A stretch of DNA of 63,573 bases, the filler included, from Trichomonas gallinae (Eukaryota): assembly GCA_008369845.1 (NCBI GenBank). It is 6 parts of 6 records of this genome, joined end to end, with 100 filler letters (N's around TTAATTAATTAA, not from the genome) between each part and the next. Parts side by side here need not be neighbours in the genome. Positions count along the whole stretch, not along the records: positions 48,105 to 55,415 come from MRSU01000300.1; positions 55,516 to 61,717 come from MRSU01000306.1; 4 more parts are not named here. One strand, 5' to 3'. Below, piece after piece: positions 16,434 through 59,614 of this stretch (within the stretch, counting starts at the first letter, position 1; every line of letters begins with the position of its first letter). Under the pieces are notes generated by a model. The model was not told the DNA's origin and did not search any database. It worked only from the letters and a program-made list of their open reading frames with translations. The translations under genes were made by a program, and so were the position numbers.

Positions 16434-16452
16434 AACGGTTTGGTCGGCCTTT
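16434..16452 (+). promoter_or_regulatory. Trichomonad M3 + M5 core promoter
   Basis: AACGGTTT (M3-like) followed by CCTTT (M5) ending 9 nt before the ribosomal-protein ATG. Confidence 0.6.
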
Positions 16453-16460
16453 CGTGAAAA

Positions 16461-25735: not shown

Positions 25736-26065
25736 ATGTCTGCAGCAGAACAGAAGAAGCAGGCTGAGGAGAAGCAGAAGCAAATCGAGGCACAGCGCGC
25801 AGCCCTCCTCGACAAGATTCTCTCAACAGAAGCCAAGGAAAGACTTGGCAGAATCGCATTAGTTAAGCCAGAGAAGGCCAGAATGGTCGAAGATTTGTTA
25901 ATTCAGATGTCTCAGCAGCGCAACCTTGGTGGCCCAGTTCAGGATGCTGAACTCCTCGATATTCTTAACAAAGTTTCTGCAACAGAGCAGGCTCACAGCA
26001 CTGTCCAGATTAAGCATCGTGGAAAGTTCGATGACAAGTGGGACGATGATGATGAGGGCTGGTAA
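25736..26065 (+). CDS. PDCD5: PDCD5 / double-stranded DNA-binding family protein
   Basis: IL..EAKERLGRIALVKPEKARMVE.LLIQM signature; acidic tail. Confidence 0.9.
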   Translation: MSAAEQKKQAEEKQKQIEAQRAALLDKILSTEAKERLGRIALVKPEKARMVEDLLIQMSQQRNLGGPVQDAELLDILNKVSATEQAHSTVQIKHRGKFDDKWDDDDEGW

Positions 26066-26746
26066 GTTTTGGTATTTTATTAACAAACGATCAACTAACT
26101 TATTATGTACTTAAACCAATATTGTAATAATTTTCTCGCCCCGGCATATCATAATTACCTTATTTCAACCTTCAGTTCTTTGATTTTACTTTACTTTTGC
26201 TTATTTTTCCTTTGGAATGCTTTTATCATTTCATTTTGCTACTACATACTTTCAATACTAAGTAACTACAACACAAATTCGAATTCATTTATTTAATTTT
26301 GATTTATTTTTTAATTTGCTTAGTTTGTGTTTGTCAGTTTACATTTTATTCGCAGACGGGCAATGATTTGTTATATTTTTGTCCTTTGAATGCACATTAA
26401 TTTTAATGAAAAAACAAAATTATCAATTTTATAAAAAATACTCTTGTAGAATGATAGAGATCGTAGAAATATTTTTGTTTACTAAGGAAAAAGATCTAGT
26501 TGATGATAATAAATGTTTAAATAATTAATGATAAAATAAACAAATTAATAGATTAAATAATGTTTTGAGTGTCTAATAATATGCCAAAGTAATTGGCCGC
26601 AAAATCCAATTTTTCGAATTTAGCCATTGAAAAATCAACGAATTTTGCCAAAAATACTACGAAAAATAGAGATTATATGCGATAACTAAGCTAAATAAAT
26701 AATAAAAGTCATTTCAAGGGTAAAACACTGTCACTTTTAGAAAAAA

Positions 26747-28081: not shown

Positions 28082-28481
28082 GCTGATTTTAATTTACATT
28101 TTTAAACACAAAATATTTAATACATGAAATGATTTTTCTTTAATCCATCAATTGATCACAAACTCTTATTGATTTTCGAAAAATTCTAAAAATTTCAATA
28201 ATTAGCAATATCTAATCATGATCATTTAAATTTAGTGAATATTGTTAAATCTAAATGATATGTTAACAACTAAAACAGTCTATACAGTAACAAAATTTGA
28301 TTAGAATTTACAACGCATTTAATACCATAAATATTTGATATTAATGCATTGTTTAATACAAAACTAATAAAACTCCATATATAAGTATTCTTGAATGTTT
28401 CAATTTTTGATCTCAAATTCTATAAAATTTTAATAAATAACTAAAACAACTATTAAGTAAAATAGTATAATTTTATACAGT

Positions 28482-29735
28482 TTAATAAACAATTAGCGAA
28501 CCTTCTTCATCCCATTTTGCAGAGACTTCAATTTTGTAATCTGATTTGTCGCAGGAGATTGTTTTGTTTTCTGGGTCGATTTCGATCTTGCATGCAACTG
28601 GACCTCCAAGAGTTCCATACTTTGTGAATCTGATATCTGTTGGAAGGCAAAGGCCAAAATTGCCCCATTGGTCAGGAATTGTTATTGTGCTCAATGGATT
28701 GGCCATAACTGTGGTGAACATAGCGTGGTAACTGTAGTCTAACTGCTTATCTACGAAGAAGAAACGCATTTCTGGTCCGAAATTAGTCTGTAGTTTGTTG
28801 AATACTTTCCTATCGGCAGCATTGCTTAATCCACCAAGAGCCAACATGAAACTTTTCCACCAAGAATATGGATAATACTTGCATTTGAATAAGAAGCCAT
28901 TTGAATTGATTTTAGCATAAAAATCATCAACTTCTTTCAGATAGTAGTCATGTGATGCGAAGAAATGTGTACCAAGGAATAATGGATAATTTTCCTTAGT
29001 GAAACCGAAGCCAATAACAGCTCTCTTAGAAACAACAGATTCAGCAACAACTCTCAACAAGTTTGATCCAAGTGGGAGAGACAATAAAATCCTTGCTTCG
29101 CGGCAAATTGATAATTTCTTGTTCCAAAGAGGAATAGCTGAACAAAGCTGCTGTGGTGTGAGCTTGACATCTGTGTTCTTAGCAAATATGTATCCATAAT
29201 CGCTTCCTGTCTTTGTTTCAGAATAAATTGGGCGATAAATGTCAGTAAATGCTGGGAGTTTCGGCTTTTTGAGATGATCTATGAACTTCTTTTCTGTATA
29301 AATGGCGCCGCATCCGACCTTTTCAGCACTTTCAAGAAATTCCTCTGGAGTCTGCAAACCTGGGCCTGAAGCAATGACTGGAGTGCCATTGACCAAACAG
29401 GAGAGGTAAATGACGAATGATTCTTTTGTCGTTTCGGCATAAATACCGAGAGGATTTGATTGATTGAAATTGCTAAGAACTGGCTTCAATTCTTTAATTA
29501 TTGAATAAACTTTCTCATATGTTGTATATTTGAGATTGTTATTCTGGTCTATTTCAGCAAAAAATGGAAGGTTTTTCTCAAATTGCCAATTTTCCATGAA
29601 TAGCTCTTCGAAATCGCGATATGACTCCGTCTCATAATTTTCTGGGTCGCTCCTGATGTTCTTGTTTTCAGGATCAACGACTGAATACTGATAACCACGT
29701 GGAGGCTGGGAATAACCTGCGCCCATTTCTGACAT
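28482..29735 (-). CDS. Divergent, shortened long-chain acyl-CoA synthetase (ANL)-like protein
   Basis: N-terminal ...YTTYEKV... segment, LSLPLG, ADRKVFNKLQTNFGPEMRFF and GTLGGP resemble ACSL; no TSGTTG P-loop and no C-terminal domain. Confidence 0.5.
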   Translation of the reverse strand: MSEMGAGYSQPPRGYQYSVVDPENKNIRSDPENYETESYRDFEELFMENWQFEKNLPFFAEIDQNNNLKYTTYEKVYSIIKELKPVLSNFNQSNPLGIYAETTKESFVIYLSCLVNGTPVIASGPGLQTPEEFLESAEKVGCGAIYTEKKFIDHLKKPKLPAFTDIYRPIYSETKTGSDYGYIFAKNTDVKLTPQQLCSAIPLWNKKLSICREARILLSLPLGSNLLRVVAESVVSKRAVIGFGFTKENYPLFLGTHFFASHDYYLKEVDDFYAKINSNGFLFKCKYYPYSWWKSFMLALGGLSNAADRKVFNKLQTNFGPEMRFFFVDKQLDYSYHAMFTTVMANPLSTITIPDQWGNFGLCLPTDIRFTKYGTLGGPVACKIEIDPENKTISCDKSDYKIEVSAKWDEEGSLIVY

Positions 29736-30228
29736 GTCACTTTTTAGAATTTTGACATTTTACTTGTCAAATATCAAATAAATTGACAAGGTAAATTTTT
29801 TAACATTTAATTTTTACAGGCGTGAAAGCAAATCATATAACATAGGAAATTGTTTAACATCAGCATTAGTTTCTATTCTAGGATCAAGAAGATAGGAGCC
29901 AAATACCAACTTATTCTACATCTTGTTGAGTCTCTCTGAATGAATATCAAATTTCTCAACTCAAGTTGTGATATACTTATATATTCGAATTTTTCATACA
30001 AGTTGTACAGAAAGCTTTTATTTTTTGTGTCTATAAATAGTGTTTGTTTTCTAATTTGCATTGAATTTTTGATAATAGAATAGATGGATAGAATACATAT
30101 TGCTAATAAAATTTACTTATTTAAAAATCGAAAATATTGTAAATTTGATGAAATAAATTAAATTTTTGTAAAATTTTCAAAAAATATTTTTCAAAAATTT
30201 AAAACGGCAGATTCCATAACTTATCAAA

Positions 30229-32184
30229 ATGCGGAAACCAAAAACAGATCAAATGCGACAAGAACTATGGAAAACCATGCTAAAACTCATGGCGATCACG
30301 AGTGATCCTGAAATGGATGAAATTGATGGCGCCGTGCAGGAAATATTCAAAGATGATCCTCCTGTTTGGCTGAATAATCACATTGTTTTTGGTTCTCTCG
30401 TCACAGCATTTGACACAGACATAGAATATCAAATCTCGAAAATGAAATCTCTACAAACTCGAATAGAACATCAAATCAAAATTAAAAATGCCAACGAATT
30501 ACGAAAACAGAGCATAATTGAAGAAATACAACGAATAGAAAGTGATATAGCAACAGATAGTACTGGTCAAAGCACCGCAACGTATGATACAAATTATGAT
30601 TTACAAATCGAAGAATATGATCGAATATGCAGGGAGAAAAGAGGCGATTTACATGCTCTAGAAGAGGAATGTGATCAATTGGAGAAATATTACGATGAAG
30701 TGGAACAAGAATTAACAAAACAGAAAAATGTTCGTGATATCTACCAGCAGCACCTCGTAGATTGCTCAAAGGTTATCAGAGACTTCAGAAAACAGAATGA
30801 AAAGATTAGATTATTCCTTAAAACAATAATAAATCACAGAAACTCATTACATCAGACGCAGAAAGATTTGATCATTACAGGGGATAAACTCTTAAAAGCA
30901 CGCGCAGACAATGAGCAGATGATTAAAAGACTAGAAGATAAATACGGTGAACACCAGACATTAATGCAGAAACTCGAAGAAACAGAGATAAAAATTAAAC
31001 AAGCTGAGCAGCAACAAGAAATGACTTTGACAAAAATGATAGAAGCTGTGAAAATGTCTGAGCAAGCCAGAGCAGAGGTTTCAAAGCAGAGCGCACTCAA
31101 CTTGAACTTATCAAACGAGATTGCTCGATTAAGAGAACTGACTAGAGAAGAGTCGCAAAGATTGACTCAGGCATTGGACGAACATGTCAGGGGAATTGAA
31201 CGCGGCTACAACAACGTATTAAATGAGATGACGGCGAGGATAAAGGAAGTTGAAACAGAGAATAAGGAGACAGTGCAAGATAGAGCAGTAGTCCAAAGAA
31301 GAGTAGAACTGGCGATGGTTGAAAACGCAAAATTGGTTGATCAAAAAGGTGACAATGGATTCCAGATGTTTATATCCGAAATGAGAAGATTGAAAGACAC
31401 AAGTGAAGAAGTTATCCTGAAGATAGATGAGATGAAGGTTAGCTCTATAAAATACGCTGATGGAATCGGATCGACAAAGACTAAAATCGTGCAAGTTTCT
31501 CGCGAATGCCGCGACGAGCTTCAAAGTCTCGAAGAAAGAGCGAAAAACTTAGAAGAAGAAGTTAAGACGGCAATTGAGCAACGCGACGAAGTTATCACTA
31601 CAAATGAGAGGATTGTTGCTGAAAATAAAGAACTGAGAAGAGCAATTGTCAACGCTCATTCATCGTCAAAATCAGATATGGAGAAAGCGATGAATGATAA
31701 ACAAGAAGAAATCGACGAGATGAACGAGCAAATAGAAAGGGCAGTAGCAGAATCAGCACGTGCAGTAGAAAATATAACAGCAGCTGCCACAGGATATAAA
31801 CAACACGCAGATAAATGGAAGTGTCAGCTTGATATAATCAATGCTGAAGCGAGTGAAGTGAAATCAAATATCTCTGCGAGCAAACGCAATAAAACAGACG
31901 AGTCGAAGTCATTGAGACAGCGTGTAGCAGATTTAGCACGTAGAGCTGAAGAGATAAGATTCGAAATTGCGGAAACAGACAGAGAAATTGCTTTGCTAAA
32001 ATCAGAAGTCGCAGAGAAAAATGCAGCAAGAAGAAAGGCAGAGAGGCGGGTTAGAAATATAGAGCAGATAAGGTTGGACTTCCAATCTAATAGAGAAGAG
32101 TTGGAAAGAATCTCGAAGATGCTTGATAAGAAGATTCAGAAATACGGTTCTGAGATTTACCTTTTACAAGCTGAAAATCATTAA
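30229..32184 (+). CDS. Long coiled-coil protein
   Basis: 651-aa ORF of continuous E/K/R/Q heptads. Confidence 0.85.
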   Translation: MRKPKTDQMRQELWKTMLKLMAITSDPEMDEIDGAVQEIFKDDPPVWLNNHIVFGSLVTAFDTDIEYQISKMKSLQTRIEHQIKIKNANELRKQSIIEEIQRIESDIATDSTGQSTATYDTNYDLQIEEYDRICREKRGDLHALEEECDQLEKYYDEVEQELTKQKNVRDIYQQHLVDCSKVIRDFRKQNEKIRLFLKTIINHRNSLHQTQKDLIITGDKLLKARADNEQMIKRLEDKYGEHQTLMQKLEETEIKIKQAEQQQEMTLTKMIEAVKMSEQARAEVSKQSALNLNLSNEIARLRELTREESQRLTQALDEHVRGIERGYNNVLNEMTARIKEVETENKETVQDRAVVQRRVELAMVENAKLVDQKGDNGFQMFISEMRRLKDTSEEVILKIDEMKVSSIKYADGIGSTKTKIVQVSRECRDELQSLEERAKNLEEEVKTAIEQRDEVITTNERIVAENKELRRAIVNAHSSSKSDMEKAMNDKQEEIDEMNEQIERAVAESARAVENITAAATGYKQHADKWKCQLDIINAEASEVKSNISASKRNKTDESKSLRQRVADLARRAEEIRFEIAETDREIALLKSEVAEKNAARRKAERRVRNIEQIRLDFQSNREELERISKMLDKKIQKYGSEIYLLQAENH

Positions 32185-32319
32185 ATGTTTTGTTATTTAT
32201 TTGTTTTATCAACCGAGAAATCTTTATTTAGTATATTTTTAATTTGGACATCTTAACCTTAATCTTCAAAAACTGCATGATTATTATATTATAGAGCATA
32301 AGAAATAATTTTGTGGAAA

Positions 32320-32393
32320 TCCTCCCTAACTCAGTTGGTTAGAGTGTCAGACTGTTAATCTGGAAGTCGTGTGTTCGATCCACACGGGAGGAG
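32320..32393 (+). tRNA. tRNA-Asn (GTT)
   Basis: TCCTCCC/GGGAGGA acceptor stem, TCAGA-CTGTTAA-TCTGG anticodon arm, GTGTG-TTCGATC-CACAC T arm; T-run terminator follows. Confidence 0.95.
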
Positions 32394-33140
32394 TTTTTTC
32401 TTTTTCAAAATTCCTTCATTTTTCACATTGCACCTGTATTTTTAATTTTTGGCTATCAACTACATCTACTTCACATCCGAAACATTTTATAGAACAACAT
32501 ATCCCAATTAATTCAAACTCAGACAGACTTTTGAAATGATGCCGAAATTAAACCTACAATCCAATACGCATAACCAATCAAAATGTTATTAATATAAGGT
32601 ATTGATGCTCTTGATCAGTTGCCGATCTGTTTCGATAGTAGATCAATTGTCCGAACTGATGTTTCAGTGTGGTTCACTTTCTGAACCAATTTACTTGTGT
32701 ATTTTTATTAATAATTATATTTTATAGTTGTTCCTTGATATATTTTAATGTTATGAGCAAATGAAAATCTTGAAATTCAAAATTTAGCTTCAGGATGAAT
32801 TCCATGGCATATACTAAAGTTAAATAATGTGGTGGTACATGAACCCAACGAAGAAAAGTTATATTAAACATTGATTTGTTTTTTGTTATAAACATGATAA
32901 TAGATTATATGGTAGGTCCATTTAACATCTATCAATTCATTTTCATATAATTTTGATCGCAAATTACCTGCTTTGCCTAATTGAACTGATATATGTAATC
33001 ATATCCTTTATATCTAATCAAAATATGGATAACATATCCGAATACAAGTAGATTTATGCAATGTAATGACGCTCATATAGAAAAAATCCTTTTAGATATC
33101 GATAATATGTAATTTTAAAACACACAAACACAAATATATC

Positions 33141-33581
33141 TTAATCACTGTCATCATGCTGGTGTCGATGGTATTTCCGTTTATGGGGTTCACCATCATT
33201 TGTTTTTGTTTTTTCGCGTTTTTTGTACTTTCTCTTTTGCTGTTGGAATGTTTCGGAGTCATCCGTAGCGTCCGAATCACTTAGATCAAGATTTGAAAAG
33301 CTTTTAGTTTTCTTTTTCATTGGTGGTGGATCAATAATCTCTTCTGTTTTCGTAACTAGCTTTTTCTTTTTCTGGATATGGGTAGCTGATTTACTTACTC
33401 CTGCTTTTTCCCAGTATATTGATTTATACGAGGGAAGAAGCATTGACCATTCAGCAGCAATTCTTCTTGAAATTTCGATAAACGTAAGTCCTTCAATTGC
33501 ATCGCGATGCATGTTCCGCCACTCCGCTGTAAACACAGAGAAGGCGGTAAGGTTTTTTGTCTGTGGAGAAGTAACTGTCGT
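33141..33581 (-). CDS. HMG-box protein (no ATG at the expected start; ACG instead)
   Basis: KNLTAFSVFTAEWR......LTFIEISRRIAAEWSML...K..Y..KA is an HMG box; the frame opens at AAA-ACG right after a TAA. Confidence 0.75.
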   Translation of the reverse strand, partial: TTVTSPQTKNLTAFSVFTAEWRNMHRDAIEGLTFIEISRRIAAEWSMLLPSYKSIYWEKAGVSKSATHIQKKKKLVTKTEEIIDPPPMKKKTKSFSNLDLSDSDATDDSETFQQQKRKYKKREKTKTNDGEPHKRKYHRHQHDDSD

Positions 33582-34725
33582 TTTTTAAAAATGATGTATT
33601 CAATTTTTTTTATTTGTGAGGAATATAATCGTAATTTTGAACAAAAAATAAAAGTTATTCCTTTCTTTAAAGTGAACAAAATTTATCAAAATTTATAAAA
33701 CTTGCATTTTTATTTGTTTTGAAAATATCAAAAATGCAATCACTGTACTACAAAAATTCCGAATTTCGCAGCAAAATAATCGAAATTGCCAATATTCGAA
33801 TTCCACAATTGCATTTTATCGAAACTTTGATTCGAAAATATCAAAATACACTAGAGATAATTATTTTCTGACTGGATCTAACAGGAAATTGAATAATTGA
33901 TGTTTTTTTAATTGAGGAAAAATTTATTGATTTATTTATCCTTTATCTATATGATAATCTATCTCCATACAATTAACTCAAAAGTAATTAATATTTAATT
34001 TGGTTCAAATCCAAATGATATGAATCACAAGATATATATTTGCTCTTTAAATACCATATTACGTGTCAATTAATGATGTTGAGTCTTTAATTGATATGAA
34101 ATAACATGATTTGATCCCTGAAAAGTCAATTTATTTCGAATGAATAAAATTTTCAAAATATACTAGGGAATTGATACAAAAATTCTCCAAAAATTATCTG
34201 TTTTCACAAACAGGTATATCAGTTACATTGACTACAGTTTCAAAATAGAAGTTTAAGATATATTTAATCATTGAATACTGGATAAACTTCCGAAATATTC
34301 ATATTGGTTATCATGACTTACATTATATTCAGACAGAGATTTCAGATCAAATAAATATTCATGCCTAACATATTAAAATACTATAATTTATTGACAATTT
34401 TGAAATAGTTAAATACATGATAACATTTACAGATAGAATACTATTTCTTACTGATAAGGAACTATCTGACAGAAAGAAAAATGTATATATAGCATCAGAT
34501 CATATTTTGACGATTTCATCTTACAGTAAATTCGCATAATCATCCGCTAAAACTCTAACAAAGATACTACCCAATTCAAAGCAAACATTAAAAATGTAGA
34601 TTGTTATTCATTCATTTCATTCTCATAATTAGATCCATTATGATCAAGATGCTCGAGAATTTATTATAATGTGGTAGTAAAAAGTAGTTTGGGATGGTTT
34701 TTGGAAAGAAATAACAATAATAATA

Positions 34726-36210
34726 TTATTCTTTTTCTATTATTTCATACAATCGTGTTATATTTTCTGTTTCATCTTCTTCATCGAGGATGTCTAAAAC
34801 ATCCTGTGTTATGCTGTTGAGTTCGGCTTCAATACTTGTATCATATAAAGTTTTTGATTTAATGAGAGTGAAGAACCTAAGTAAACATCTGACATAAAGA
34901 TCCAATGACTCTGGGTCATGACATGTTTCCATTTGATTAGGAATTAAGTCAATTATTGAAACTAAATCAATATTCGCGAGAGATTCAATGGTTCCATCCA
35001 ACATGTATGCGAGGATATACTCGAAAAACTTATGTTTAGTGTCGAAATTCGTTTCATGGAAACTTCCAACGAAATTCTGAATTGCATCAAAATGATTACA
35101 AGTTTTAATTGTATCTGGAAATGTGGAAATCAATGCATGAAGTGAAGAAAACGCGCCCATTTGCACATCGTTGTCTGGTGGATGATTCATTAAAATATAT
35201 AAAATTGAATTTACAACATCACCAGGACCAAACTTACTATCAGGATCAAACAAACTACTACTAAAAAATTCTGGCACCTTTTTAGCTAATATGGTCATAA
35301 CTTTCATGTAAATGATCGGACTTTCATCATATGCCGCATCTTTCCATTTTAAAAAAAATTTAGTATTAATTGATGAGAAATCGTCATAATTTCGTTTGAG
35401 AAGTTGATACATTATGTTTCCTATGTAATATGTTGAGTATCCAAGTCTATAATGTATCCACATTTTTAATGCAATTTTAATTTCATTAATAATGTCAGGT
35501 GTAACTTCATTGCTCTTCAAATAGTGTGCAATAAAGATAGAGAGCGTACTTACGTATCTACTATTCGTTTCTTCGTTGGAAATTTGATAATGTCTGTTAA
35601 TTATTTTTAATGCAACGTCCGGACTAAAAATCGGAGCATATTTAGGGCGCATGATGATATTTATATATGTTAATAGTATTGCTATTTCTGCATTCGATTT
35701 AGAAATGTTATCTGAATTTTGATGAGAAGCACGAAGCGAAAAATTATGGGTATATGTATTTGTGAGGAAATATAGCGATAGTTCTAAGTAATTTTCTGCT
35801 AATAAATCATCAATATATATTGGATCTCCGCGTGTTAAATCATTTATCACTGAAAATATTGCAAATCTGAAATTTCCATCGCCAATGCGTTTTTCTTTGA
35901 GTATATTTAGTAATGCGAGTAGTTTTTCTGGTAAATGGAAGTCTCTACATATATCTATATTTGGAAAAGGATGCTCTGCGATTAAATTGTGCAAATTCAT
36001 TAAGTAGTCCTTAATTGATTGATAAAAATCAGGATTATTAAAGTCAGATTGATCTAATCCTTCAATATAAGGAATAATTGCCGAAATAAACTCTACATCT
36101 TCCCAACACGGATCCATTTCATTCTCTCCTGGCAGTTTGATGTAGTTTTTGTCCAAAATTCGTTCATTGAATTGTTGAACATATTCATTCTCCTTATATG
36201 GATCTATCAT
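34726..36210 (-). CDS. Hypothetical alpha-helical (ARM/HEAT-like) protein
   Basis: 494-aa ORF with helical L/I-rich periodicity; no diagnostic motif. Confidence 0.75.
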   Translation of the reverse strand: MIDPYKENEYVQQFNERILDKNYIKLPGENEMDPCWEDVEFISAIIPYIEGLDQSDFNNPDFYQSIKDYLMNLHNLIAEHPFPNIDICRDFHLPEKLLALLNILKEKRIGDGNFRFAIFSVINDLTRGDPIYIDDLLAENYLELSLYFLTNTYTHNFSLRASHQNSDNISKSNAEIAILLTYINIIMRPKYAPIFSPDVALKIINRHYQISNEETNSRYVSTLSIFIAHYLKSNEVTPDIINEIKIALKMWIHYRLGYSTYYIGNIMYQLLKRNYDDFSSINTKFFLKWKDAAYDESPIIYMKVMTILAKKVPEFFSSSLFDPDSKFGPGDVVNSILYILMNHPPDNDVQMGAFSSLHALISTFPDTIKTCNHFDAIQNFVGSFHETNFDTKHKFFEYILAYMLDGTIESLANIDLVSIIDLIPNQMETCHDPESLDLYVRCLLRFFTLIKSKTLYDTSIEAELNSITQDVLDILDEEDETENITRLYEIIEKE

Positions 36211-48104: not shown

Positions 48105-50234
48105 ATGAGCTGTTGCATTTCTTGACGCATTAGCTGTTTCATTTCTTGACGCATTAGCTGTTTCATTAATTGTTGTATCAGGAGGTGGCGTAGGAACTGG
48201 TGTAGCTGTTATATTTACTGCTCCATTTGGCTTTTTTCTAAATAATCCTCTTGCCCACTGGTATCCAGAATTGAAATATTGTCTGTATCCTCCTGGTGTA
48301 GAGATAGGTGTAGAAATAGGTATAGGCATAGGTGTAGGCGTAGGTGCTGGTGCTATTGGCACATGAGCTGTGGCATTTCTTGACTGTAAGCTTGGATGCT
48401 CAGGCTCATCAGCTGGGTGTCTCCATCCAGAACTCAATAATCTCTTGGTTGTGTTAACTGTTGCATTGACTGCGCTGCTTGTTATATTGACAAAAGGTTT
48501 GGCAACTGTATGAATATCTTTTAAGACAGGATGGTCATTATACCACCCCTCACCAATTGCTTTTTCTTCCTCTTGCTTTTGTTTCCTTTCAAGTTTCTTT
48601 TCCTTTTGTTTATCTTTCCCTTCTTGCGCTTTATTTTTAGATTCTTGCATTTGTAGCTTTAATTCTTTAGATTTATTTTGGGCTTCTATAACATGTGCCT
48701 TTAATTGTATAGATTTATTTAGAGCTTCTTGCATAGCAACGTCTCTCTCAGCTCGTTGTAATTCCAGCTGGTGTTCAGCCTCCTGTTGTCTTCTTCTTTC
48801 TCGTTCCAGATTAGCATTATTAAGTTCTCGATATACCTGATTATACCAATTCATAAATTCCTGTAGATAAAGCTGCTCTTGATTTCTACCAGGACCTCCT
48901 CCAGGAGCTGGCTGTTCAATATGTGGGGCTCTACCTATACCTCCACCTGGAGGTGATGCTGGTCTTGATGCTGGTCTTGACACGTGAGCAGATGTGGGTG
49001 CTGTCGTATGAGCTGATGTTTGAGCTGATGTGTGTGCTGTCGTATGAGTTGATGTATGAACTGACTGTGTAGGAGTTGATGTAGGTGTTGATGTAGACGT
49101 TGATGTAGACGTTGATGTGGGAGCAGTCGTGGGAACTACAGTACGGGCTACAGTAGGGGCTGTATACGTTGGAGCTACAGTAGTGGCTACAGTACGGGCT
49201 ACAGTAGGGTCTGTATACGTGGGAGCTACAATAGGAGTTGGTGTGGGTGATGGTGTAGGAGCTGGTGTGGGTGATGGTGTAGGAGCTGGTGTAGGGGTAG
49301 TCGTAGGAGTAGTCGTAGGAGTAGTCGTAGGGGCTGCAGTACGCCTCAATCTTTCAGGACTTGCGTGTTCCATAGCTGGTGAATTATTATTTACAAAATC
49401 AGATTCTTGTCGTCGTGTTTCATGAGTGTTTGATTGTCCTGATGGAATTAGATTACGTGTAATTCCTGATTCTCGTGTATGGGAAGGATTAGCGTTTTGA
49501 TTTACTGATGGTGCTAGAGTAGAAGTTGGCGTAGGAGTTGGTGTCGATTTTCGAGCTTTATCACGTTCCTTAAGTTCATTTTTTAAATCTTCATATTTTA
49601 AATCATTTAGCCCAAATCTACCATCCTCCCATTCAGTTTCTTTATGCACATCGACATCTGCTGGAATATCTAAAATTGGTTCCATAATACCTCGTTTGAA
49701 GAAATTTTCTTTCAATCTCTTTTTTGCTTCTTTCCATCCTAAACCCTCTTTTTTATATTTTTCAAGTTTTCTAACTGCACTATCGTACCACATAGCTCTA
49801 TATCTATCTGTCCAAGGCATATGAAGATAGGCATTAAACCACTCTGAGGATATATCCTGTCCAGATTTAAAATATTCATTAAGGACGTCTGCACTTGGTT
49901 CGTCTTTACCAAGTATTTCATATACTCTATCAGCATTATATTTATTAACACGATTCCCCAAAAGTCCTTTTTCTTCAAGCCATTTATAACCTTTTTCATA
50001 TTTCAGGGCTTTTTTGATGAGTTTATCTTTGTCTTTCCATGTTCCATCATCCTTTTTCAAATTATATCTAAAATTCCAGTATGGATTATCCCCAATATCA
50101 GTATTGGCTTTCAAAACATATGCAACCTCTGGTCCCAATATCTTTTTTGCTTTGATATATATTCGTCTATTTTCAGTATCCATCCAGTCATTCATTCGTT
50201 TAAACAACTTTCTTTTTCTCTCTTCATTGTTCAT
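48105..50234 (-). CDS. Long Pro/Thr-rich element protein with coiled coil; 3' end lost in the gap
   Basis: Basic/aromatic N-terminal domain, PT/TS tandem repeats, coiled coil and NETANASR repeats. ATG at 50234 (or 50246). The track stop at 48057 lies in the linker. Confidence 0.75.
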
Positions 50235-50258
50235 TTTAAAACACATTAAAAAATATAT

Positions 50259-50699
50259 TTAGAATCGAGCCATATGATTAGTAATAGCGCTTATCCACGG
50301 CGAGTCATCTAGAACCCTGATTCTCTTTAAATATAAATTAGCTTTCGCCATGAAATTAGTGCCACCAGCATTTGGATTATATAAGCTTTGGTCAAGTTTT
50401 TCGCCGTCCTTTGGCTCATCTTTGATAGTATTGCCGCGTAATGTTTCTGTGAAATTATTTATTTGTTTAGTCAATTCACTGTCTTTTCCTAAGAAATACT
50501 CAGAACCTTTCCCTGCTAATGAACCTAATGAGGTCAATGCAGCATGCACACCAGGTACAGCTATGCCGACAATATTGGAAATATGCCCTATTGCTTCACC
50601 TGGATTCTTCTTACCGAATTTCCAAGCGTTCTTTGCTAAATTGACGCCACCATTGATATGTGATGATATTGAAGAGCGGAAATTGTTTAGAAATCCCAT
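50259..50699 (-). CDS. Small Gly-rich virion-like protein with amphipathic N-terminus
   Basis: MGFLNNFRSSISSHINGGVNLAKNAWKFG...; 9-bp and short spacers to its neighbours. Confidence 0.65.
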   Translation of the reverse strand: MGFLNNFRSSISSHINGGVNLAKNAWKFGKKNPGEAIGHISNIVGIAVPGVHAALTSLGSLAGKGSEYFLGKDSELTKQINNFTETLRGNTIKDEPKDGEKLDQSLYNPNAGGTNFMAKANLYLKRIRVLDDSPWISAITNHMARF

Positions 50700-50708
50700 T
50701 TATACATT

Positions 50709-51608
50709 TTAAAATAATGTCTTCTTACCCTGTTTTACTTCTTTAAACTCTACAATACCTGCGACTATATGAATTTCCATATAGGACCTAGGTGATGGGA
50801 GATTCTTATATTGTTCCCATAACTCTTGCCAGTCTTGTGTAGCTCCTGATTGCTCAATCATTGTCTCTAAATCACGCATGGAATAGCCTTGGAAGATTAC
50901 GAAGTCAGTGCATAATCTCTTAATGTTCAAAGCAATGTGTCGCCATGTTTGGCACATAATGACTACAGTATAGTTGTAATGCCTGACTTTAGTAATGAAA
51001 TTCGCTAATGGGGAATCAGTTTTGTTTAATAATGAATGACCACCATAGTCGTCTAGAACTAATATAGTATTACTGGGGTATTTAGTGAATGGATATTTAT
51101 TGAGCTTTCGAATAATGTATGCCGCTAATTTCTTAATATCATAATCACCATTGTCTTTTCGCAATTTATGCTTAACAATAATATGTTCCATTTCTTCTGA
51201 TACCTTTTCGAGTTTAGATTCTACGAATTCCACTATAGCATAATATTTACTTTTCATTTTCACGTTCTTATTGAGGTAATCCATTAATTCTTTATCATTG
51301 ACTTTCGTAATTGGTGCCTTGCATTCTTTCATAAATGTTTTCGCTGTCTTATCCATAGTTCCAGAAGTAGCTGAAACCACTATTGAGTCATAATAAGGAG
51401 TCTTAGCGAATCTATCAGTTATCATAATATGGCGAATGACTCCATAAGTCTTACCTGAACCCATCTTTCCGCAAAAGAAATACACTCCATTAGTGCAGAA
51501 AGGGTAGTCTTCACTAAATGGGAGAATTAATGCATTGTTCAGCTGCTTACCATTTTCTCTGGCTCCCTTATTTAATATTTTTTCTACTTCCTTAATCACT
51601 GATTGCAT
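50709..51608 (-). CDS. A32-like (FtsK-HerA superfamily) viral DNA packaging ATPase
   Basis: Walker A YFFCGKMGSGKT, Walker B TILVLDD, A32-type motif VRHYNYTVVIMCQ...I...IK; 299 aa. Confidence 0.9.
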   Translation of the reverse strand: MQSVIKEVEKILNKGARENGKQLNNALILPFSEDYPFCTNGVYFFCGKMGSGKTYGVIRHIMITDRFAKTPYYDSIVVSATSGTMDKTAKTFMKECKAPITKVNDKELMDYLNKNVKMKSKYYAIVEFVESKLEKVSEEMEHIIVKHKLRKDNGDYDIKKLAAYIIRKLNKYPFTKYPSNTILVLDDYGGHSLLNKTDSPLANFITKVRHYNYTVVIMCQTWRHIALNIKRLCTDFVIFQGYSMRDLETMIEQSGATQDWQELWEQYKNLPSPRSYMEIHIVAGIVEFKEVKQGKKTLF

Positions 51609-51627
51609 GATTTTATTATTTATTAAA

Positions 51628-52692
51628 ATGTATACTCAACACGGTTTATACTTCGAACACGTCATGACTGAAGGAGAGCCTAAGGGTAATACAATAGCAT
51701 TTAAGCTACCTAGAGACTTTATCGAATTTGCAGGTAAGCATAAATCAATCGAACTAAGACGAATAATGATTGAATACCCAGATTATTTCTTGAGATTGCC
51801 TAGTCTTACTTATACATCCCAAAATTTCTGGCAAGATACTTATGATATATCTAAGGACTATACCAAAAAGCCAAAGGCAATGGTTCTAAAAGAAAAACTA
51901 GCTGATAAAACAACAGGATTCGCATATGATTATGATACTGGGTCGGATAATTATTCCTTCTTAATAAATTCATTAAATAAACAAATAAATTCGGATGAAC
52001 TTGTTCTAAGATATATTAAAAATAAAAATGAAATAATTCTAGAAATGTATAGACTATCGATTACTGATTTACGTCAAGAAAGTTCATATGATTATGGCAT
52101 TCGACATACAATAATTTTTCCGACAATAAATGAGAATAATGATTATTTATACAAACCAATTTATGGTGATAATGTGAAGCAATTATGGATTGATATAAAT
52201 GATACTCAAACGAATGTAGTGGAAGATGAAGAAAGTTTATCTCAGCGTGATAATGACTATTATCATAGACAAGAACATACCCAGTTCGATAAAAAATTAG
52301 AAAAATACGGATATATAAATGCCGAATATCTGCGTAAAGAAGTCAGAGCAGACAATCATCGTGTTTTCCTAACTTATTTCTACAAAATAACACTCACGTG
52401 TAATAATGTGGAATATCAATTTCATGCTTATGCGAGAAGATATCATCTCTATAAAATTATATTTCATGATATAGCACCTCGAAATCAATTACTGATTATG
52501 AGTAGCTTAGCTCATGATAATAAACAGTTCATTGGATACACGAATGAAAGCTACAATCCTCCAAAGCACTATGACATTACTGGCTACAAAGATGAACTTG
52601 TTTTAGAGTTCTACGAACGTGATGGTATTACTCCTGTAAAAATGAACAAAAATAATCATATCCAATTAGAAACTATATTAGTAGCTAATTAG
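51628..52692 (+). CDS. Putative minor capsid (penton, single jelly-roll) protein
   Basis: ATG at 51628. N-terminal FKLP.......SIELRRI and C-terminal LEFYERDG.TPV........LETIL strands flank an insertion, as in Polinton/PLV minor capsids; lies next to the ATPase. Confidence 0.55.
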   Translation: MYTQHGLYFEHVMTEGEPKGNTIAFKLPRDFIEFAGKHKSIELRRIMIEYPDYFLRLPSLTYTSQNFWQDTYDISKDYTKKPKAMVLKEKLADKTTGFAYDYDTGSDNYSFLINSLNKQINSDELVLRYIKNKNEIILEMYRLSITDLRQESSYDYGIRHTIIFPTINENNDYLYKPIYGDNVKQLWIDINDTQTNVVEDEESLSQRDNDYYHRQEHTQFDKKLEKYGYINAEYLRKEVRADNHRVFLTYFYKITLTCNNVEYQFHAYARRYHLYKIIFHDIAPRNQLLIMSSLAHDNKQFIGYTNESYNPPKHYDITGYKDELVLEFYERDGITPVKMNKNNHIQLETILVAN

Positions 52693-52906
52693 ATTTCTCC
52701 TTTGCTTCAGCTTCTTCACGGAGTTTCTTAGCTATCATACGAGGATTCTTGGCTCTTCCAGCAGCTAATGCAGCTAATTGCTTTTCGGATAATTTTCTCT
52801 TTGGCTTTGGCTCTTTTGGTTTATCTTCGTTCTTGCCTTTAAGTTCATTAAGTATCTCATCTCTGAGTTCTTTCTTGAGTGATTCACTGTCGAATGTCTC
52901 TGTCAT
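52685..52906 (-). CDS. Small basic helical protein (possible DNA-binding/core protein)
   Basis: KPKRKLSEKQLAALAAGRAK; 73 aa; shares the element's upstream motif. Confidence 0.65.
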   Translation of the reverse strand: MTETFDSESLKKELRDEILNELKGKNEDKPKEPKPKRKLSEKQLAALAAGRAKNPRMIAKKLREEAEAKEKSN

Positions 52907-52940
52907 TTCTTTATGATAAAAAATTTTTATTAAGTAGAAA

Positions 52941-53387
52941 ATGACTCAGAAACTTTCGCAGAGTGAAAAACAAAGTATCATCATGAATGAAGAGAAAGGT
53001 ATTTTGCATCCATTGTATTACGTATGTAAGATGAAGAATGGTGCAGTACAGATTCGTAAGAGAAAAATACCATTAAATGCTGCTCCTGCTCCACAAGTTG
53101 CTATTCCGCAAACTAAGGAAGAAGATAAGGAAGATATAATTACGAATAGAATGCTATTAGAGAAAATGGTTTCGATATTAGAAAAGAATTCCATCAGTAA
53201 TGATATGAACTTGAATCCTATAGAGAGGGAGAAAGAGACAAAAGAGAATAAGGAATACGTGGAATCAATTCAGGAGAAAAGAGTTGTATTCGATGAGGCT
53301 CCATTAAAGCCACCAGAGCAACCTGTACCTCAGATGCCTCAGCAACAAATACGAAGGAGACCACCTCCACGAGCTAGAATATTGTAA
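52941..53387 (+). CDS. Element hypothetical protein
   Basis: 148 aa; HPLYYVCKMKNGAVQIRKRK and an Arg/Pro C-terminus; 28 bp upstream of the capsid ORF. Confidence 0.7.
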   Translation: MTQKLSQSEKQSIIMNEEKGILHPLYYVCKMKNGAVQIRKRKIPLNAAPAPQVAIPQTKEEDKEDIITNRMLLEKMVSILEKNSISNDMNLNPIEREKETKENKEYVESIQEKRVVFDEAPLKPPEQPVPQMPQQQIRRRPPPRARIL

Positions 53388-53415
53388 TTAATTTATATTT
53401 TTTTACTCTTAAGAA

Positions 53416-55002
53416 ATGCTGAACGACAATCTTAATACTTACTCGATTGCAGATTCGATTCACCAGGTAAGATATTATTTCGACCAAATTGATAATGCAG
53501 TTCCGATTGGTGATACGAATCATAGATATGTTAATTCTAAAGTTCCTTCATCACCAGGTAGCTGTGTCGATAATGGATACACAACATTCAACATTTCTCC
53601 TCCAGGTGAGAACATGATTGATTTATATAATTCCTTCATTTATGGAACATTAAAGCTAAAGGTAAGACCAAACACTGCTATTAGTGCTGTAGAAGTACCA
53701 GACGGATGTCATGTACCAGCAATTTGGATTGGATATGTTGATTCCTATTATGCTGTAGCTTCATATCAATTGCTCGCTAATGGTAAAACAATCTATACTC
53801 AAGATAATGCAAGAGAAGAAGGATACTTGACTTCCACAGCTTCCACCACTGAAGCTATTAAGAAAGTTGATGTATTTAGTAAAGCTAGACATAAGGATAT
53901 ATGGAACAGAGTCGATACAATTAGAAGTGGTGCATTAATTGAACTTAATAAGGCTAGAAGCTTTTCTGAAGATATCGAACTCGATATACCAATTAAAATT
54001 GATTTACGAAGGTTCCTTATATTAAATAATATTAGATTCCTCCCAGCTTTCTGTGGAAACTTGCAGCTGAAGATTAAATTCAGCACCGAAGGATTAGTGA
54101 TGACACCATTATCCGTCGAAGATTGCATTTATAATAGGTCATTAAGGAGACTTATTACTAAATATCCAAAACTAACAAATAAATTCGTTCAAATTGGTGA
54201 GCCTGTTTATTTCATTGATAACGTAAAGGCAAACAAGGAAACAGGTACACAGACCATTACATCTATTGAACTTACAGCAGGTAGTACATTTTTCACTGCT
54301 AGGGGTTCTGTTTTCTCTGAATTAGCGACATATTGCTATGCATTCTCTCTGGACCCGAATGTTTATAGTGATTTGGTGGAAAGATATAGCGGCAGAACAT
54401 TAAACTTCCCTGTTAAAAGAATTGATTGCGTGGTTATGGATGGTAATGTTGCAGGAAATAATGAACAAACCACCTGCACTGCAGCATTTACCCCATTATT
54501 CGTGAATAGTGTTTATTTGTTATTCAAGAAGAAGCCTCATTATTACACTGTCTTTGAGAATCCATTATTCCAATCAATACAGCTCAACTGTGGCGCGTAT
54601 GGAAACATCCCGTGTGAAGGAGTACCATCAAACTCTGCTATCTTCTATGAAATGCTCGCAAATTGCACCAATAATAACAATGATGAAGTAGGATTTAATT
54701 ATGATGTGATGCGTTCCATTACTGCTACAGAAATCGAGGATACAGGATATGAATCGAATGATACCACCCATTTCATTTGTGGATTCCCGTGCGAAACTGA
54801 TTACACCTATCAACAGGGTCAATTATCTAACTCACCAATCACCTATACATTAACTATGAAAGGCTCTACAGAATCTGCTAAATATAAAGAGAAGCCAATC
54901 ATCTGCTTCCTCAGACATGCATGCTTATCAATTCAAGTCAAACAAGTTGGACCACCGATTGTATTACTAGATGATTATGATTTAAGTGCTCCTGCTACAT
55001 AA
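53416..55002 (+). CDS. Putative major capsid protein (double jelly-roll)
   Basis: 528 aa, beta-rich. TTFNI......IDLYNSFIYGTLKLKV, YQLLANGKTIY, IPIKIDL..F...RFLP....LQLKIKF, VNSVYLLF and FQSIQL..G follow the DJR capsid strand pattern; co-located with the A32 ATPase. Confidence 0.75.
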   Translation: MLNDNLNTYSIADSIHQVRYYFDQIDNAVPIGDTNHRYVNSKVPSSPGSCVDNGYTTFNISPPGENMIDLYNSFIYGTLKLKVRPNTAISAVEVPDGCHVPAIWIGYVDSYYAVASYQLLANGKTIYTQDNAREEGYLTSTASTTEAIKKVDVFSKARHKDIWNRVDTIRSGALIELNKARSFSEDIELDIPIKIDLRRFLILNNIRFLPAFCGNLQLKIKFSTEGLVMTPLSVEDCIYNRSLRRLITKYPKLTNKFVQIGEPVYFIDNVKANKETGTQTITSIELTAGSTFFTARGSVFSELATYCYAFSLDPNVYSDLVERYSGRTLNFPVKRIDCVVMDGNVAGNNEQTTCTAAFTPLFVNSVYLLFKKKPHYYTVFENPLFQSIQLNCGAYGNIPCEGVPSNSAIFYEMLANCTNNNNDEVGFNYDVMRSITATEIEDTGYESNDTTHFICGFPCETDYTYQQGQLSNSPITYTLTMKGSTESAKYKEKPIICFLRHACLSIQVKQVGPPIVLLDDYDLSAPAT

Positions 55003-55025
55003 ATTACTTTTTTATCAGAGGATAA

Positions 55026-55283
55026 ATGAATGAACTTGAAAAGCTATTTGAAGAAAAAGAGATTCCATACATTTTGATAGGTGATAAATACACTCTATTC
55101 AGTTGTAATGGATTTCCTGTTCTAAATATTGAAATCGATGAAGGATTTTTAATTAGACCAGTAAATTTGAATATTGATTCTCTCGATGAATATTATTTCG
55201 AAAGAGATTGTGGATGTTATAAGATATTTGATTTTGATAGATTATATGATATATATTTGTGGCGTGCTAGAGACTTTGAATAA
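55026..55283 (+). CDS. Small acidic/aromatic element protein
   Basis: 85-aa ORF 23 bp after the capsid stop, with the same upstream motif. Confidence 0.6.
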   Translation: MNELEKLFEEKEIPYILIGDKYTLFSCNGFPVLNIEIDEGFLIRPVNLNIDSLDEYYFERDCGCYKIFDFDRLYDIYLWRARDFE

Positions 55284-56096
55284 TAAAAATAAATTTGATT
55301 AGTCATAAGTAGTAATATAGTAATAATCTGCATCTGGTTCGATTCCAGAAATCTAATCTAATTTATTTTTTATTTAATATTTTTGCTGATATATGGGAGG
55401 GGACTCGTGGGCACTNNNNNNNNNNNNNNNNNNNNNNNNNNNNNNNNNNNNNNNNNNNNTTAATTAATTAANNNNNNNNNNNNNNNNNNNNNNNNNNNNN
55501 NNNNNNNNNNNNNNNTCCGATTTTAAGCCCCAAAAGTTGTTTGTGAGCATCTCATAGCATAAGACTTCGGAACCTCATTAGAAACATATATGTTAGGTTT
55601 TCGAATTTCGCCTCGAAAAAACGAGCCTGAGTTATAGCATATCCTCTTACATGCAATCACAGAACACTAGTTATAATTATTCAGAAGTTTTCAGAAAAAT
55701 TGTACAGTGAATTTTCGAGATCCGTTATCAAACTCTACAATGTTTCTTTCTTTATATATTTTCAAAATTATAACAATATTTCAAAAGTTTTGGATAAATA
55801 TGCTGTAACTCGTAACTATATGAGTAGATTAAAAATACAATTAATCATATTATTTCATTTCTAGTAATACTGTTTTTTTGATCAGAAAATGAAATTTTTA
55901 TAGAAAAAACAAATTTTTAAAATTTTATAATAAAAATGTGTGATTTTATATTCCTCTGTACATGAGCATCTCTAAGGCTGCATACCTTATATACGAAGTA
56001 TGGGGCAAAAATTCAGTTACTCAAAACTCCGAGGTACCTTTATTTACATGTCAAATATTTATTCAAAGTCAAGATGTTAAGTAATTTAATCATAAT

Positions 56097-58495: not shown

Positions 58496-59614
58496 ATGAA
58501 TGATGAGATTTTGAGTGATGCGATTGCTTTAAGGCATGAGTTGCACTCAATTGCAGAGCTTTCTGGCAAAGAGACGAGAACGAAAAAGCGATTAATGGAG
58601 TTTTTAGCTCAAAAAACAAATTTAGAAGTTGTTGATCGTGGATTTTGGTTTTATGCTGTTTATAAATCAAAAAATCCCAAAGGATCTGTCGCATTTCGCG
58701 CAGATTTTGATGCTATTGGCGTGACAGAAAGAACAAAAATACCATATTGCTCCACAAATCCAGAAGCTGCCCATAAATGCGGTCATGATGGTCACAGCAG
58801 TACCCTTGCCGCATTTGCAAGAGTTATTTCACAAGACGTCTATGATAAAGATGTTTATTTTATATTCCAAAATGCAGAAGAAATTGGTGAAGGTGGAGAG
58901 CCAGCATCCAAGCTTCTTGAAGAGAAAAACATCCAAAATGTGTTTGCTGTCCACAATTGCCCTGGTGTTAAGTTTGGAAATTTGGGTTTGATCAATGGAA
59001 CAGTTAATTGTGCATCAAAGGGCCTCATAATCAAGTTCCATGGTATTCCTTCGCATGCCAGTGAACCAGAAAAAGGTAGAAATCCTTCTTGCGCAATAAG
59101 CAAAACCGTTTTGGAAGTTGACACATTTTTGCGAGAAAGAAAGTTCAAAGGAATTACTTTAGCTACTGTTATCCAGATAAAAGTTGGTGAGCGAACATTT
59201 GGAGTTTCTGCCTTTGAAGGAGAGCTTCTTTACACATTGAGAGGCGAACACGAATCAGAATATGATGAACTCGAGAGAAAAGTGAAAGAATTTGCAGAAA
59301 AGAATGCAAAAGATTATCAGCTTCGCATAGAATACGAATACAGTGAGCCTTTCCCTGCAACAGTCAATCACGATGAAAGCGTTGATTTCTTAAGGAAACT
59401 CGCAAAAGAAGAAAACTTTGAAGTTTACGAAATGCCAGAACCAATCAAAGCAAGTGAAGACTTCGGATACTACTTAAGGAAAGCCAAGGGCGCTCTTATA
59501 TGGATAGGAGCAGGAGAGAATCATCCACCTCTTCACAGTGCTGATTTCGATTTCAATGACAATCTGATTCCTGTTGTTGTCAGATTATTCAAATCAATAG
59601 TTGAAAGATTATGA
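58496..59614 (+). CDS. M20D family amidohydrolase
   Basis: RHELHSIAELSG.E, RADFDA, HKCGHDGH, FQNAEEIGEG, HASEPEKG, SEDF, LHSADFDFND; ATG at 58496. Confidence 0.92.
   Translation: MNDEILSDAIALRHELHSIAELSGKETRTKKRLMEFLAQKTNLEVVDRGFWFYAVYKSKNPKGSVAFRADFDAIGVTERTKIPYCSTNPEAAHKCGHDGHSSTLAAFARVISQDVYDKDVYFIFQNAEEIGEGGEPASKLLEEKNIQNVFAVHNCPGVKFGNLGLINGTVNCASKGLIIKFHGIPSHASEPEKGRNPSCAISKTVLEVDTFLRERKFKGITLATVIQIKVGERTFGVSAFEGELLYTLRGEHESEYDELERKVKEFAEKNAKDYQLRIEYEYSEPFPATVNHDESVDFLRKLAKEENFEVYEMPEPIKASEDFGYYLRKAKGALIWIGAGENHPPLHSADFDFNDNLIPVVVRLFKSIVERL

What the first reader, a model, noticed from the sequence alone, without database searches (positions are those of the whole stretch)
48105..55415. 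Polinton-like virus structural module filling an entire contig
Seen: eight ORFs packed with -8 to 34 bp spacers, against 0.2-2 kb between most host genes. They include a 299-aa ATPase with Walker A GKMGSGKT, Walker B ILVLDD and RHYNYTVVIMCQ, a 528-aa beta-rich protein and a 354-aa beta-rich protein. Established: an A32-type ATPase plus double jelly-roll major capsid and single jelly-roll penton form the morphogenesis core of Polintons/Mavericks, Polinton-like viruses and virophages, and trichomonad genomes are known to hold such elements. Inference: this is an endogenous or co-sequenced PLV-type virus whose ORFs show no internal stops. No pPolB, integrase/recombinase or protease is in the 7.3 kb, so it is either truncated or helper-dependent, and may be a distinct lineage.
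Basis: partly seen in the sequence, partly recalled or inferred. Interest (0 to 1): 0.9.

Follow-up and report, generated by a model that had tools for sequence, protein, structure and literature searches.

The report
Trichomonas Polinton arm with pox-like promoters
This contig is the capsid-and-packaging arm of a Polinton-type virus of a trichomonad parasite, likely cut short by the assembly, and its capsid gene is already published; the new part is a fixed upstream motif shared by its genes but not by nearby host genes, which resembles a poxvirus late promoter and may mean the element borrows a large virus's transcription machinery.

Summary
Observation confirmed: a whole 7,311-bp contig with eight intact, tightly packed ORFs. 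The 528-aa protein folds as a double jelly-roll capsid, the 299-aa protein is an A32 ATPase, and the 354-aa protein is probably the penton (weak fold support). It is not a new lineage. Bellas et al. 2023 (Table S3) list this capsid at the same contig coordinates, labelled Trichomonas gallinae, in their Metamonada group. Capsid and ATPase trees both make it sister to a low-copy T. vaginalis family. The missing polymerase and integrase are most likely an assembly cut: ORF1 runs off the left end inside a tandem repeat, a second data set continues it, and relatives carry pPolB and integrase. New here: a T-tract, 8-10 nt, then AAA(T)G precedes 8 of 8 element genes, 109 of 160 ORFs in relatives and 0 of 24 host genes, and works back-to-back in head-to-head pairs. 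It resembles the vaccinia late promoter. Egoviruses, poxvirus relatives, are linked to these hosts, so these Polintons may be virophage-like (about 30%, untested). Known element; testable side finding.

The parts
48105..50234 (-). ORF1, 709+ aa (713+ from the ATG at 50246), open at the contig end; about 230-aa N-terminal domain, Pro/Thr repeats, charged helical stretch, more repeats; function unknown, variable between copies
   Evidence: No Pfam hit; the search of 1.84 billion representatives gave 42 hits, on or next to the PT repeats except one unrelated repeat protein; only the second ATG has the shared upstream motif
48108..48167 (.). 24-nt tandem repeat (2.5 copies) at which the assembly breaks
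   Evidence: a contig of run X1 at depth 281 carries further repeat units beyond 48105 (table 5c)
50259..50699 (-). ORF2, 146 aa, DUF4107-like small protein following the ATPase
   Evidence: Pfam DUF4107 E 3.7e-5, below its cut-off; weak match to the gene after the ATPase in L040; DUF4107 is a TvMav1/2 gene
50709..51608 (-). A32-type genome-packaging ATPase, 299 aa
   Evidence: Pox_A32 E 3.6e-10; 78% identical to T. vaginalis P0126; sister to it with support 0.992
51609..51627 (.). 19-bp head-to-head spacer: TTTTA-N8-TAAAA on both strands, one gene's AAA block being the other's T-tract; predicted bidirectional promoter
   Evidence: sequence
51628..52692 (+). Probable penton (minor capsid), 354 aa: single jelly-roll split by a large insertion
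   Evidence: Model confident only at about residues 11-50 and 290-354, mean pLDDT 44.9; Foldseek top hit mavirus penton, E 0.043; VIA top hit an EhV-201 capsid chain, Z 9.9, rmsd 4.4, 118 aligned; homologs lie two genes before the MCP in most loci inspected
52685..52906 (-). ORF5, 73 aa basic protein with the conserved EKQLAALAAGR motif; possibly a DNA-binding core protein (inference)
   Evidence: tblastn hits in 13 of 59 loci
52907..52940 (.). 34-bp head-to-head spacer with a central A6T5 giving each gene its own T-tract 11-12 nt before its ATG
52941..53387 (+). ORF6, 148 aa, conserved gene directly before the MCP
   Evidence: hits in 15 of 59 loci; identical protein in the collection as P0125
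53388..53415 (+). T7-N8-GAAATG motif before the MCP; predicted promoter
53416..55002 (+). Double jelly-roll major capsid protein, 528 aa; published
   Evidence: pLDDT 88.0, pTM 0.87; PBCV-1 capsid Z 19.5, rmsd 3.9, 337 aligned; mavirus MCP Z 16.6, rmsd 4.2, 388 aligned; PMC10120064 Table S3 row 43
55026..55283 (+). ORF8, 85 aa, unknown; part of a much more abundant repeat in run X1
   Evidence: no hit in loci; summed depth 5,743 against about 300 for the core, with loose ends at 55024 and 55226
55284..55415 (.). Non-coding right end: AT-rich hairpin (55285-55370) and a GC-rich last 21 nt; possibly the start of a terminal inverted repeat
   Evidence: hairpin z -2.99, 1 of 200 shuffles as good; by-eye likeness to the reverse complement of the Maverick_3 terminal hairpin; no partner repeat in the contig

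Best explanation
The contig is the virion-building arm (major capsid, probable penton, A32 packaging ATPase, small accessory genes) of a Metamonada-group Polinton of a bird trichomonad, likely multi-copy, likely integrated, and likely cut off by the assembly before its polymerase and integrase. Shown: capsid fold, ATPase family, identity with a published capsid, sister relation to a low-copy T. vaginalis family, the open left end, and a fixed T-tract/N8-10/AAA(T)G motif before every gene. Inferred: the full element is about 15-25 kb, copies itself with a protein-primed PolB and inserts with an rve integrase like its relatives; capsid trimers and pentons would form an icosahedral shell that the ATPase fills with the linear genome; the motif is the promoter, one per gene, used in both directions in head-to-head pairs. 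What reads it is untested: host Pol II with an unidentified factor (about 50%), the late machinery of a co-infecting pox-like virus (about 30%), or a non-promoter role (about 20%).
For: Fold. Published: 528 aa, + strand, contig positions 5312-6898, which are window 53416-55002 minus 48104; the 400 visible residues are identical by eye; cluster MMPC_12. Trees: sister to the T. vaginalis 562-aa capsid (support 1.0, 62 sequences) and 299-aa ATPase (0.992, 83 sequences). ATPase and penton homologs have consecutive accessions in T. vaginalis in 5 listed cases. Truncation: break in a tandem repeat, continued in X1. Relatives: pPolB in L022 (E 1.4e-23) and L047 (61% over 229 aa to it), rve in L040 (E 2.7e-8) and, below cut-off, L022 and L030. 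TvMav classes are 15-26 kb. Multi-copy hint: X1 core contigs at depth about 300 against 26-30 for host contigs. Motif.
Against: No junction with host DNA, target-site duplication or complete TIR pair was seen, so integration is not shown. Depth comes from one run in one study and the tool warns it is no copy number; X1 also holds a low-depth second signal (about 2x at 16921-20245), so the element's host strain there is uncertain. In L001, L025, L038 and L047 the polymerase, or by eye its N-terminal part, follows the ORF5 homolog; here the penton does. The integrase-bearing loci lie in the other half of the capsid tree. In T. vaginalis the listed 562-aa capsid copies lay 13-32 accessions from the nearest listed ATPase or penton copy, so their linkage there is not shown (lists are partial). 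Penton support is weak.
Confidence: 0.8

Rival explanations
1. Virophage-like element: the upstream motif is read by the intermediate/late RNA polymerase of a co-infecting pox-like giant virus (egovirus), so capsid genes would stay silent until such an infection. Compatible with the main reading; it changes who drives expression.
For: Fixed spacing: 76 of 106 T-runs end 11-12 nt before the ATG. Vaccinia late promoters have TAAAT overlapping the start codon and a conserved T ten nt upstream among other Ts (PMC11980589). Motif in 8 of 8 element genes, 0 of 24 host genes, and at all three GC levels. Both-way use in 11 of 15 head-to-head pairs. Parabasalid polintons took KilA from egoviruses, which are linked to these hosts (preprint). 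Promoter sharing with a helper is the known sign in PgVV, Sputnik and mavirus.
Against: Pox TAAA is strictly conserved (PMC12917281); exact TAAATG is in only 14 of 31 capsid genes and 2 of 8 window genes, GAAATG being common. AAATG is also at 11 of 24 host starts. No egovirus sequence was available, so its promoters were not compared. No transcript data. The pattern was fitted after looking at these sequences.
Confidence: 0.3
2. A naturally short, replication-less satellite of about 8-10 kb that supplies capsids but borrows polymerase and integrase from full-length Mavericks of the same genome.
For: No replication gene in 7.3 kb; polymerase absent from the slot it holds in the closest-arranged relatives; many close homologs sit on contigs of at most about 10 kb; deleted canonical Mavericks of 5.9 and 8.3 kb exist in T. 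vaginalis.
Against: The left end is an assembly break in an open gene that continues; short contigs are expected from short reads; all three TvMav classes carry pPolB and integrase in 74% or more of copies.
Confidence: 0.1
3. A free, co-sequenced virus or episome rather than an integrated element.
For: Fills its own contig, all ORFs intact; only 36 differences in 2,766 nt from X1 (1.3%) while host contigs differ by 4.5-6%, as expected if it moves between strains.
Against: The same pattern arises from recently multiplied integrated copies collapsed in assembly; the sister family has identical protein copies on T. vaginalis chromosomes.
Confidence: 0.1
4. The T-tract motif is not a promoter but a 3'-processing or translation signal of a compact AT-rich genome.
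For: It follows the upstream stop codon closely in tandem genes; TAAA is the trichomonad poly(A) signal; strict form weak before integrase (1 of 4) and fibre (0 of 7) genes.
Against: It occurs on both strands between head-to-head genes, where nothing terminates; shuffles that keep composition and the AAA context never reach the observed counts; host genes lack it.
Confidence: 0.2

Closest known systems
Metamonada-group endogenous viruses, MCP cluster MMPC_12 (Bellas et al. 2023, PMC10120064)
   Same: The same capsid gene, length, strand and contig coordinates, labelled T. gallinae; a close T. tenax capsid is the table's row 47.
   Different: The parts I saw catalogue the capsid only; main text has no 'promoter' or 'penton'. 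The group is still unplaced among PLVs (preprint 10.64898/2026.06.19.733378).
T. vaginalis Mavericks TvMav1-3 (Sullivan et al. 2025, PMC12289875)
   Same: Homologous capsid, A32 ATPase, DUF4107-like gene; closest is a low-copy family (clusters of 27, 35, 53 members) rather than the abundant one (261, 320 members; 48% and 59%).
   Different: Gene order differs from the published class schemes; which class the low-copy family is could not be fixed (supplement sequences cut at 400 letters); TvMav2 is a guess from the terminal hairpin.
Virophages and virophage-like PLVs (mavirus, Sputnik, PgVV, entomopoxvirus PLVs)
   Same: Double jelly-roll capsid, penton, packaging ATPase; possible use of a helper-type promoter.
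   Different: About 10% structural-alignment identity to mavirus and Sputnik capsids; no protease seen; no helper shown.
Vaccinia late promoter
   Same: T-rich element about 10 nt before an AAA block overlapping the start codon.
   Different: The T of TAAAT is conserved in only about half of the genes.

Membership tests
Metamonada-group Maverick/Polinton (Bellas 2023) | MCP in the T. vaginalis-seeded cluster | tested here: met
   Listed as a reference MCP of MMPC_12; 47-62% to full-length T. vaginalis capsids
Metamonada-group Maverick/Polinton (Bellas 2023) | Parabasalid or oxymonad host | tested here: met
   Published label T. gallinae; neighbouring contigs carry eukaryotic genes
Polinton/PLV morphogenesis module | Double jelly-roll major capsid protein | tested here: met
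Polinton/PLV morphogenesis module | A32-like packaging ATPase | tested here: met
Polinton/PLV morphogenesis module | Single jelly-roll minor capsid (penton) | tested here: inconclusive
   Jelly-roll core predicted; top hits are capsid or penton chains but weak (E 0.043; Z 9.9) and two thirds of the model has low confidence
Maverick/Polinton (classical definition) | Protein-primed PolB | tested here: inconclusive
   Absent from the 7.3 kb, but the contig is cut; present in L022 and L047
Maverick/Polinton (classical definition) | rve integrase | tested here: inconclusive
   Absent from the contig; present in L040, weakly L022 and L030
Maverick/Polinton (classical definition) | Terminal inverted repeats and target-site duplication | tested here: inconclusive
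   No TIR pair in the contig; right end only resembles a terminal hairpin; no genome held
Polintoviricetes (animal Mavericks, gosseviruses) | MCP and ATPase grouping with groups 1-3; usually a cysteine protease | not tested
   My trees hold no outgroups; the preprint leaves trichomonad elements ungrouped; no protease in the held part
Virophage lifestyle | Promoter shared with a helper giant virus | tested here: inconclusive
   Non-host, fixed-spacing motif shown; helper's promoters not available
Virophage lifestyle | Replication only on co-infection | not testable with these tools
   needs culture

The most novel reading that the evidence does not exclude
Metamonad Polintons, which fill about 40% of the T. 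vaginalis genome, are integrated virophages of egoviruses: their genes carry a pox-type late promoter (T-tract, 8-10 nt, AAATG; back-to-back in head-to-head pairs), are switched on by the invading virus's polymerase, and the intact lineage here still spreads between trichomonad strains as particles.
Probability: 0.3. Interest if true: 0.8.

Novelty: already known. Interest (0 to 1): 0.4.

Why it matters
The element itself adds little: its capsid is catalogued. The shared motif matters more. How trichomonad Mavericks are expressed, and whether they make particles or are mere transposons, is open. A conserved non-host promoter gives a direct test: compare it with egovirus late genes. A match would explain the reported egovirus-to-polinton gene transfer, point to a virophage-type defence in gut and mucosal parasites, and name a trigger for obtaining the first particles. 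The penton call and the low-copy lineage also help place a group that is still unclassified.

Tried and rejected
No whole genome held. PDB sequence search uninformative for capsid and ATPase. IMG/VR scans with capsid alignment, ATPase alignment, a KilA-like protein and a pPolB found no relative, so no egovirus or complete element was obtained. The GTDB scan gave one 2,080-bp contig. No RNA holder listed; two RNA runs of the same study laid 0 records, which is no evidence on expression. The ESM Atlas did not complete. Earlier findings: none. Pfam DUF4106 matched none of the 16 proteins scanned, although paper and NCBI use that label for capsid or ATPase; the Pfam 'Zot' hit is the shared ATPase fold, not a toxin call. 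Host initiator TCAY does not separate element (1 of 8) from host (9 of 24). The terminal motif was in 0 of 60 loci. The strict motif (T>=5) misses pentons (1 of 9), ATPases (0 of 2), ORF6 homologs (4 of 14) and 3 of 8 window genes; the relaxed form was defined afterwards. A recalled paper on bidirectional vaccinia promoters could not be retrieved and is not used as evidence. No complex prediction was run.
Full report
Observation. The window joins contigs with N-spacers; 48105-55415 is one whole contig of 7,311 bp. It holds eight ORFs without internal stops, gaps of -8 to 34 bp, 96.6% coding, GC 35.5% against 32-34% for four of the five other contigs. Neighbouring contigs carry ordinary eukaryotic genes.

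Proteins. The 528-aa protein has no Pfam or useful PDB sequence hit. With an alignment of 48 sequences (the query and 47 of the 49 hits; two partial ones left out) it folds at pLDDT 88.0 and matches double jelly-roll capsids: the top 15 VIA rows are all such capsid or scaffold proteins (PBCV-1 Z 19.5, rmsd 3.9, 337 aligned; mavirus Z 16.6), and unrelated folds start at Z 6.7. The 299-aa protein is a Pox_A32 ATPase. The 354-aa protein aligns with a family lying two genes before the capsid in most loci inspected. Its model is confident only at both ends, which form one jelly-roll around an unresolved insertion. Best matches are mavirus penton (E 0.043) and an EhV-201 capsid chain (Z 9.9); non-viral jelly-rolls reach Z 7.3. 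Penton is probable, not shown. ORF5 and ORF6 are conserved in 13 and 15 of 59 loci. ORF1 and ORF8 have no informative relative.

Already published. Bellas et al. 2023 (PMC10120064; I saw main-text passages and supplement passages, file 2 being cut when stored) found the missing T. vaginalis capsid and defined a Metamonada group. Table S3 row 43 is a 528-aa capsid at contig positions 5312-6898, labelled Trichomonas gallinae. These are the window's coordinates minus 48104, and the 400 residues shown are identical by eye; Table S5 uses it as a reference of cluster MMPC_12. Sullivan et al. 2025 (PMC12289875; passages, part 1 of supplement 1, searches of others) estimate 54 Mavericks in T. gallinae and describe three T. 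vaginalis classes of 15-26 kb. A 2026 preprint (passages) still cannot place trichomonad elements.

Place in the family. Nearest named relatives are a low-copy T. vaginalis family: capsid 62% (27 members), ATPase 78% (35), penton 30% (53); the abundant family is at 48% and 59%. FastTree, midpoint-rooted, no outgroups, makes the window sister to the low-copy family for capsid (1.0; 62 sequences) and ATPase (0.992; 83 sequences; P0200 and P0203 left out). ATPase and penton have consecutive accessions in five listed T. vaginalis cases, as here; the capsid copies listed lay 13-32 accessions away, so full synteny is not shown.

Cut or short? ORF1 has no stop and ends in a 24-nt tandem repeat. In run X1 (bird metagenome, one study) a contig at depth 281 carries further repeat units past that end. 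Relatives have pPolB (L022, L047) and rve integrase (L040; weakly L022, L030). Against: where L047 has its polymerase, the window has the penton, and integrase-bearing loci are distant in the tree. X1 core contigs have depth about 300 and 1.3% difference; host contigs 26-30 and 4.5-6%. That suggests about ten young copies, but summed contig depth is no copy number and X1 may hold more than one strain. The right end resembles, by eye only, the inner arm of the Maverick_3 terminal hairpin. No host junction was seen.

New side finding. Printing upstream regions showed a T-run at a fixed distance. Strict test (T>=5 ending 7-15 nt before ATG): 27 of 31 distinct capsid genes, 12 of 12 ORF5 homologs, 1 of 24 host genes, 115 of 10,691 other ATGs; shuffles mean 2.7, maximum 9; but 1 of 9 pentons, 0 of 2 ATPases, 4 of 14 ORF6 homologs, 5 of 8 window genes. 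76 of 106 runs end at 11-12 nt. A relaxed pattern (T>=3, 8-10 nt, AAA, up to 3 nt, ATG), fitted after inspection, marks 8 of 8 window genes (ORF1 at its second ATG), 109 of 160 locus ORFs, 0 of 24 host genes, and 1.6-2.4% of other ATGs. It holds in AT-rich and GC-rich loci (33 of 53, 14 of 22, 62 of 85) against shuffles that keep the AAA context (maxima 17, 9, 15), and 0 of 5,000 such shuffles reach 8 of 8. Many loci are close relatives, so counts are not independent. In 11 of 15 head-to-head pairs both genes have it; in 14-19-bp spacers one gene's AAA block is the other's T-tract, as in the window's ATPase/penton pair. That argues for a directional 5' element, not a terminator.

Who reads it? 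Known host core elements are Inr and motifs 2-5 (PMC4693282, passages). The vaccinia late promoter is TAAAT over the start codon with a T ten nt upstream (PMC11980589, passages), which matches the spacing. Egoviruses, the closest poxvirus relatives, are linked to parabasalids and gave their polintons KilA (preprint, passages and section 8; supplements closed). Sharing a helper's promoter marks virophages (preprint on PgVV, passages). Against: pox TAAA is strict (PMC12917281, passages), here exact TAAATG is in 14 of 31 capsid genes and 2 of 8 window genes; no egovirus sequence or transcript was available. I put host Pol II at about 50%, a pox-like helper at 30%, a non-promoter role at 20%. I found no report of this motif: searches, and 'promoter' occurs 0 times in the main texts checked (three unrelated uses). 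Subscription papers such as Pritham 2007 and closed or cut supplements were not seen and may describe it. Preprint 10.64898/2026.10.13.758929 and PMC11296320 were seen as passages only.

Verdict. A real, intact morphogenesis arm of a known Metamonada-group Polinton, already catalogued by its capsid, most likely cut by assembly (0.8). Novelty of the feature: already known. Interest 0.4, carried by the conserved pox-like upstream motif, which makes the egovirus-virophage idea checkable with public genomes.

Noticed in passing
L006:4245-4583: A second capsid-like gene follows the 522-aa MCP and a 560-aa coiled-coil gene; its start resembles by eye the Histomonas MCP in Table S3 row 37. Some elements may carry two or more MCP types; T. 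gallinae has hits in three clusters (5, 1, 4).
   Followed up: no
L022:7350-8204, 14318-15046, 15850-16761; L040:4555-5313, 6274-7149: Relatives seem to encode two or three penton-like paralogs per element; two were aligned with the window's penton.
   Followed up: partly
window:48105-55415 against 21241-36200: Element is 1.3% different from run X1 while host contigs differ by 4.5-6%; the penton has 2 changes in 354 aa. Fits recent spread between strains or a consensus effect.
   Followed up: partly
window:54937-55415: ORF8 and the right end are about 5-19 times deeper than the core in X1 and are joined to other upstream sequences there: a terminal module shared with more numerous elements.
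   Followed up: partly
window:49460-50170: ORF1's N-terminal part has depth 67 against 300 for the core in X1, with repeat-length variants: ORF1 is the variable gene.
   Followed up: partly
window:16921-20245: This host stretch, holding an ankyrin-repeat-like gene, is nearly absent from X1's main strain (depth 0-2.5 against about 28).
   Followed up: no
window:16256-16920 and 32216-32880: High-depth repeats in X1 (311 and 168), probably small mobile elements; no similarity to the Polinton contig.
   Followed up: no
window:3420-30229, upstream regions: Several host genes have AAAGTGAC or a close form shortly before the ATG; recalled as a T. vaginalis upstream motif, not checked.
   Followed up: no
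L060; protein P0151: This family's ATPase occurs in prokaryote-labelled genome bins (Clostridiaceae, Enterococcus), probably misbinned contigs.
   Followed up: no
window:56933-57769 and 58496-59614: Nitroreductase and M20 peptidase genes of bacterial type on the next host contig; possible lateral transfers.
   Followed up: no
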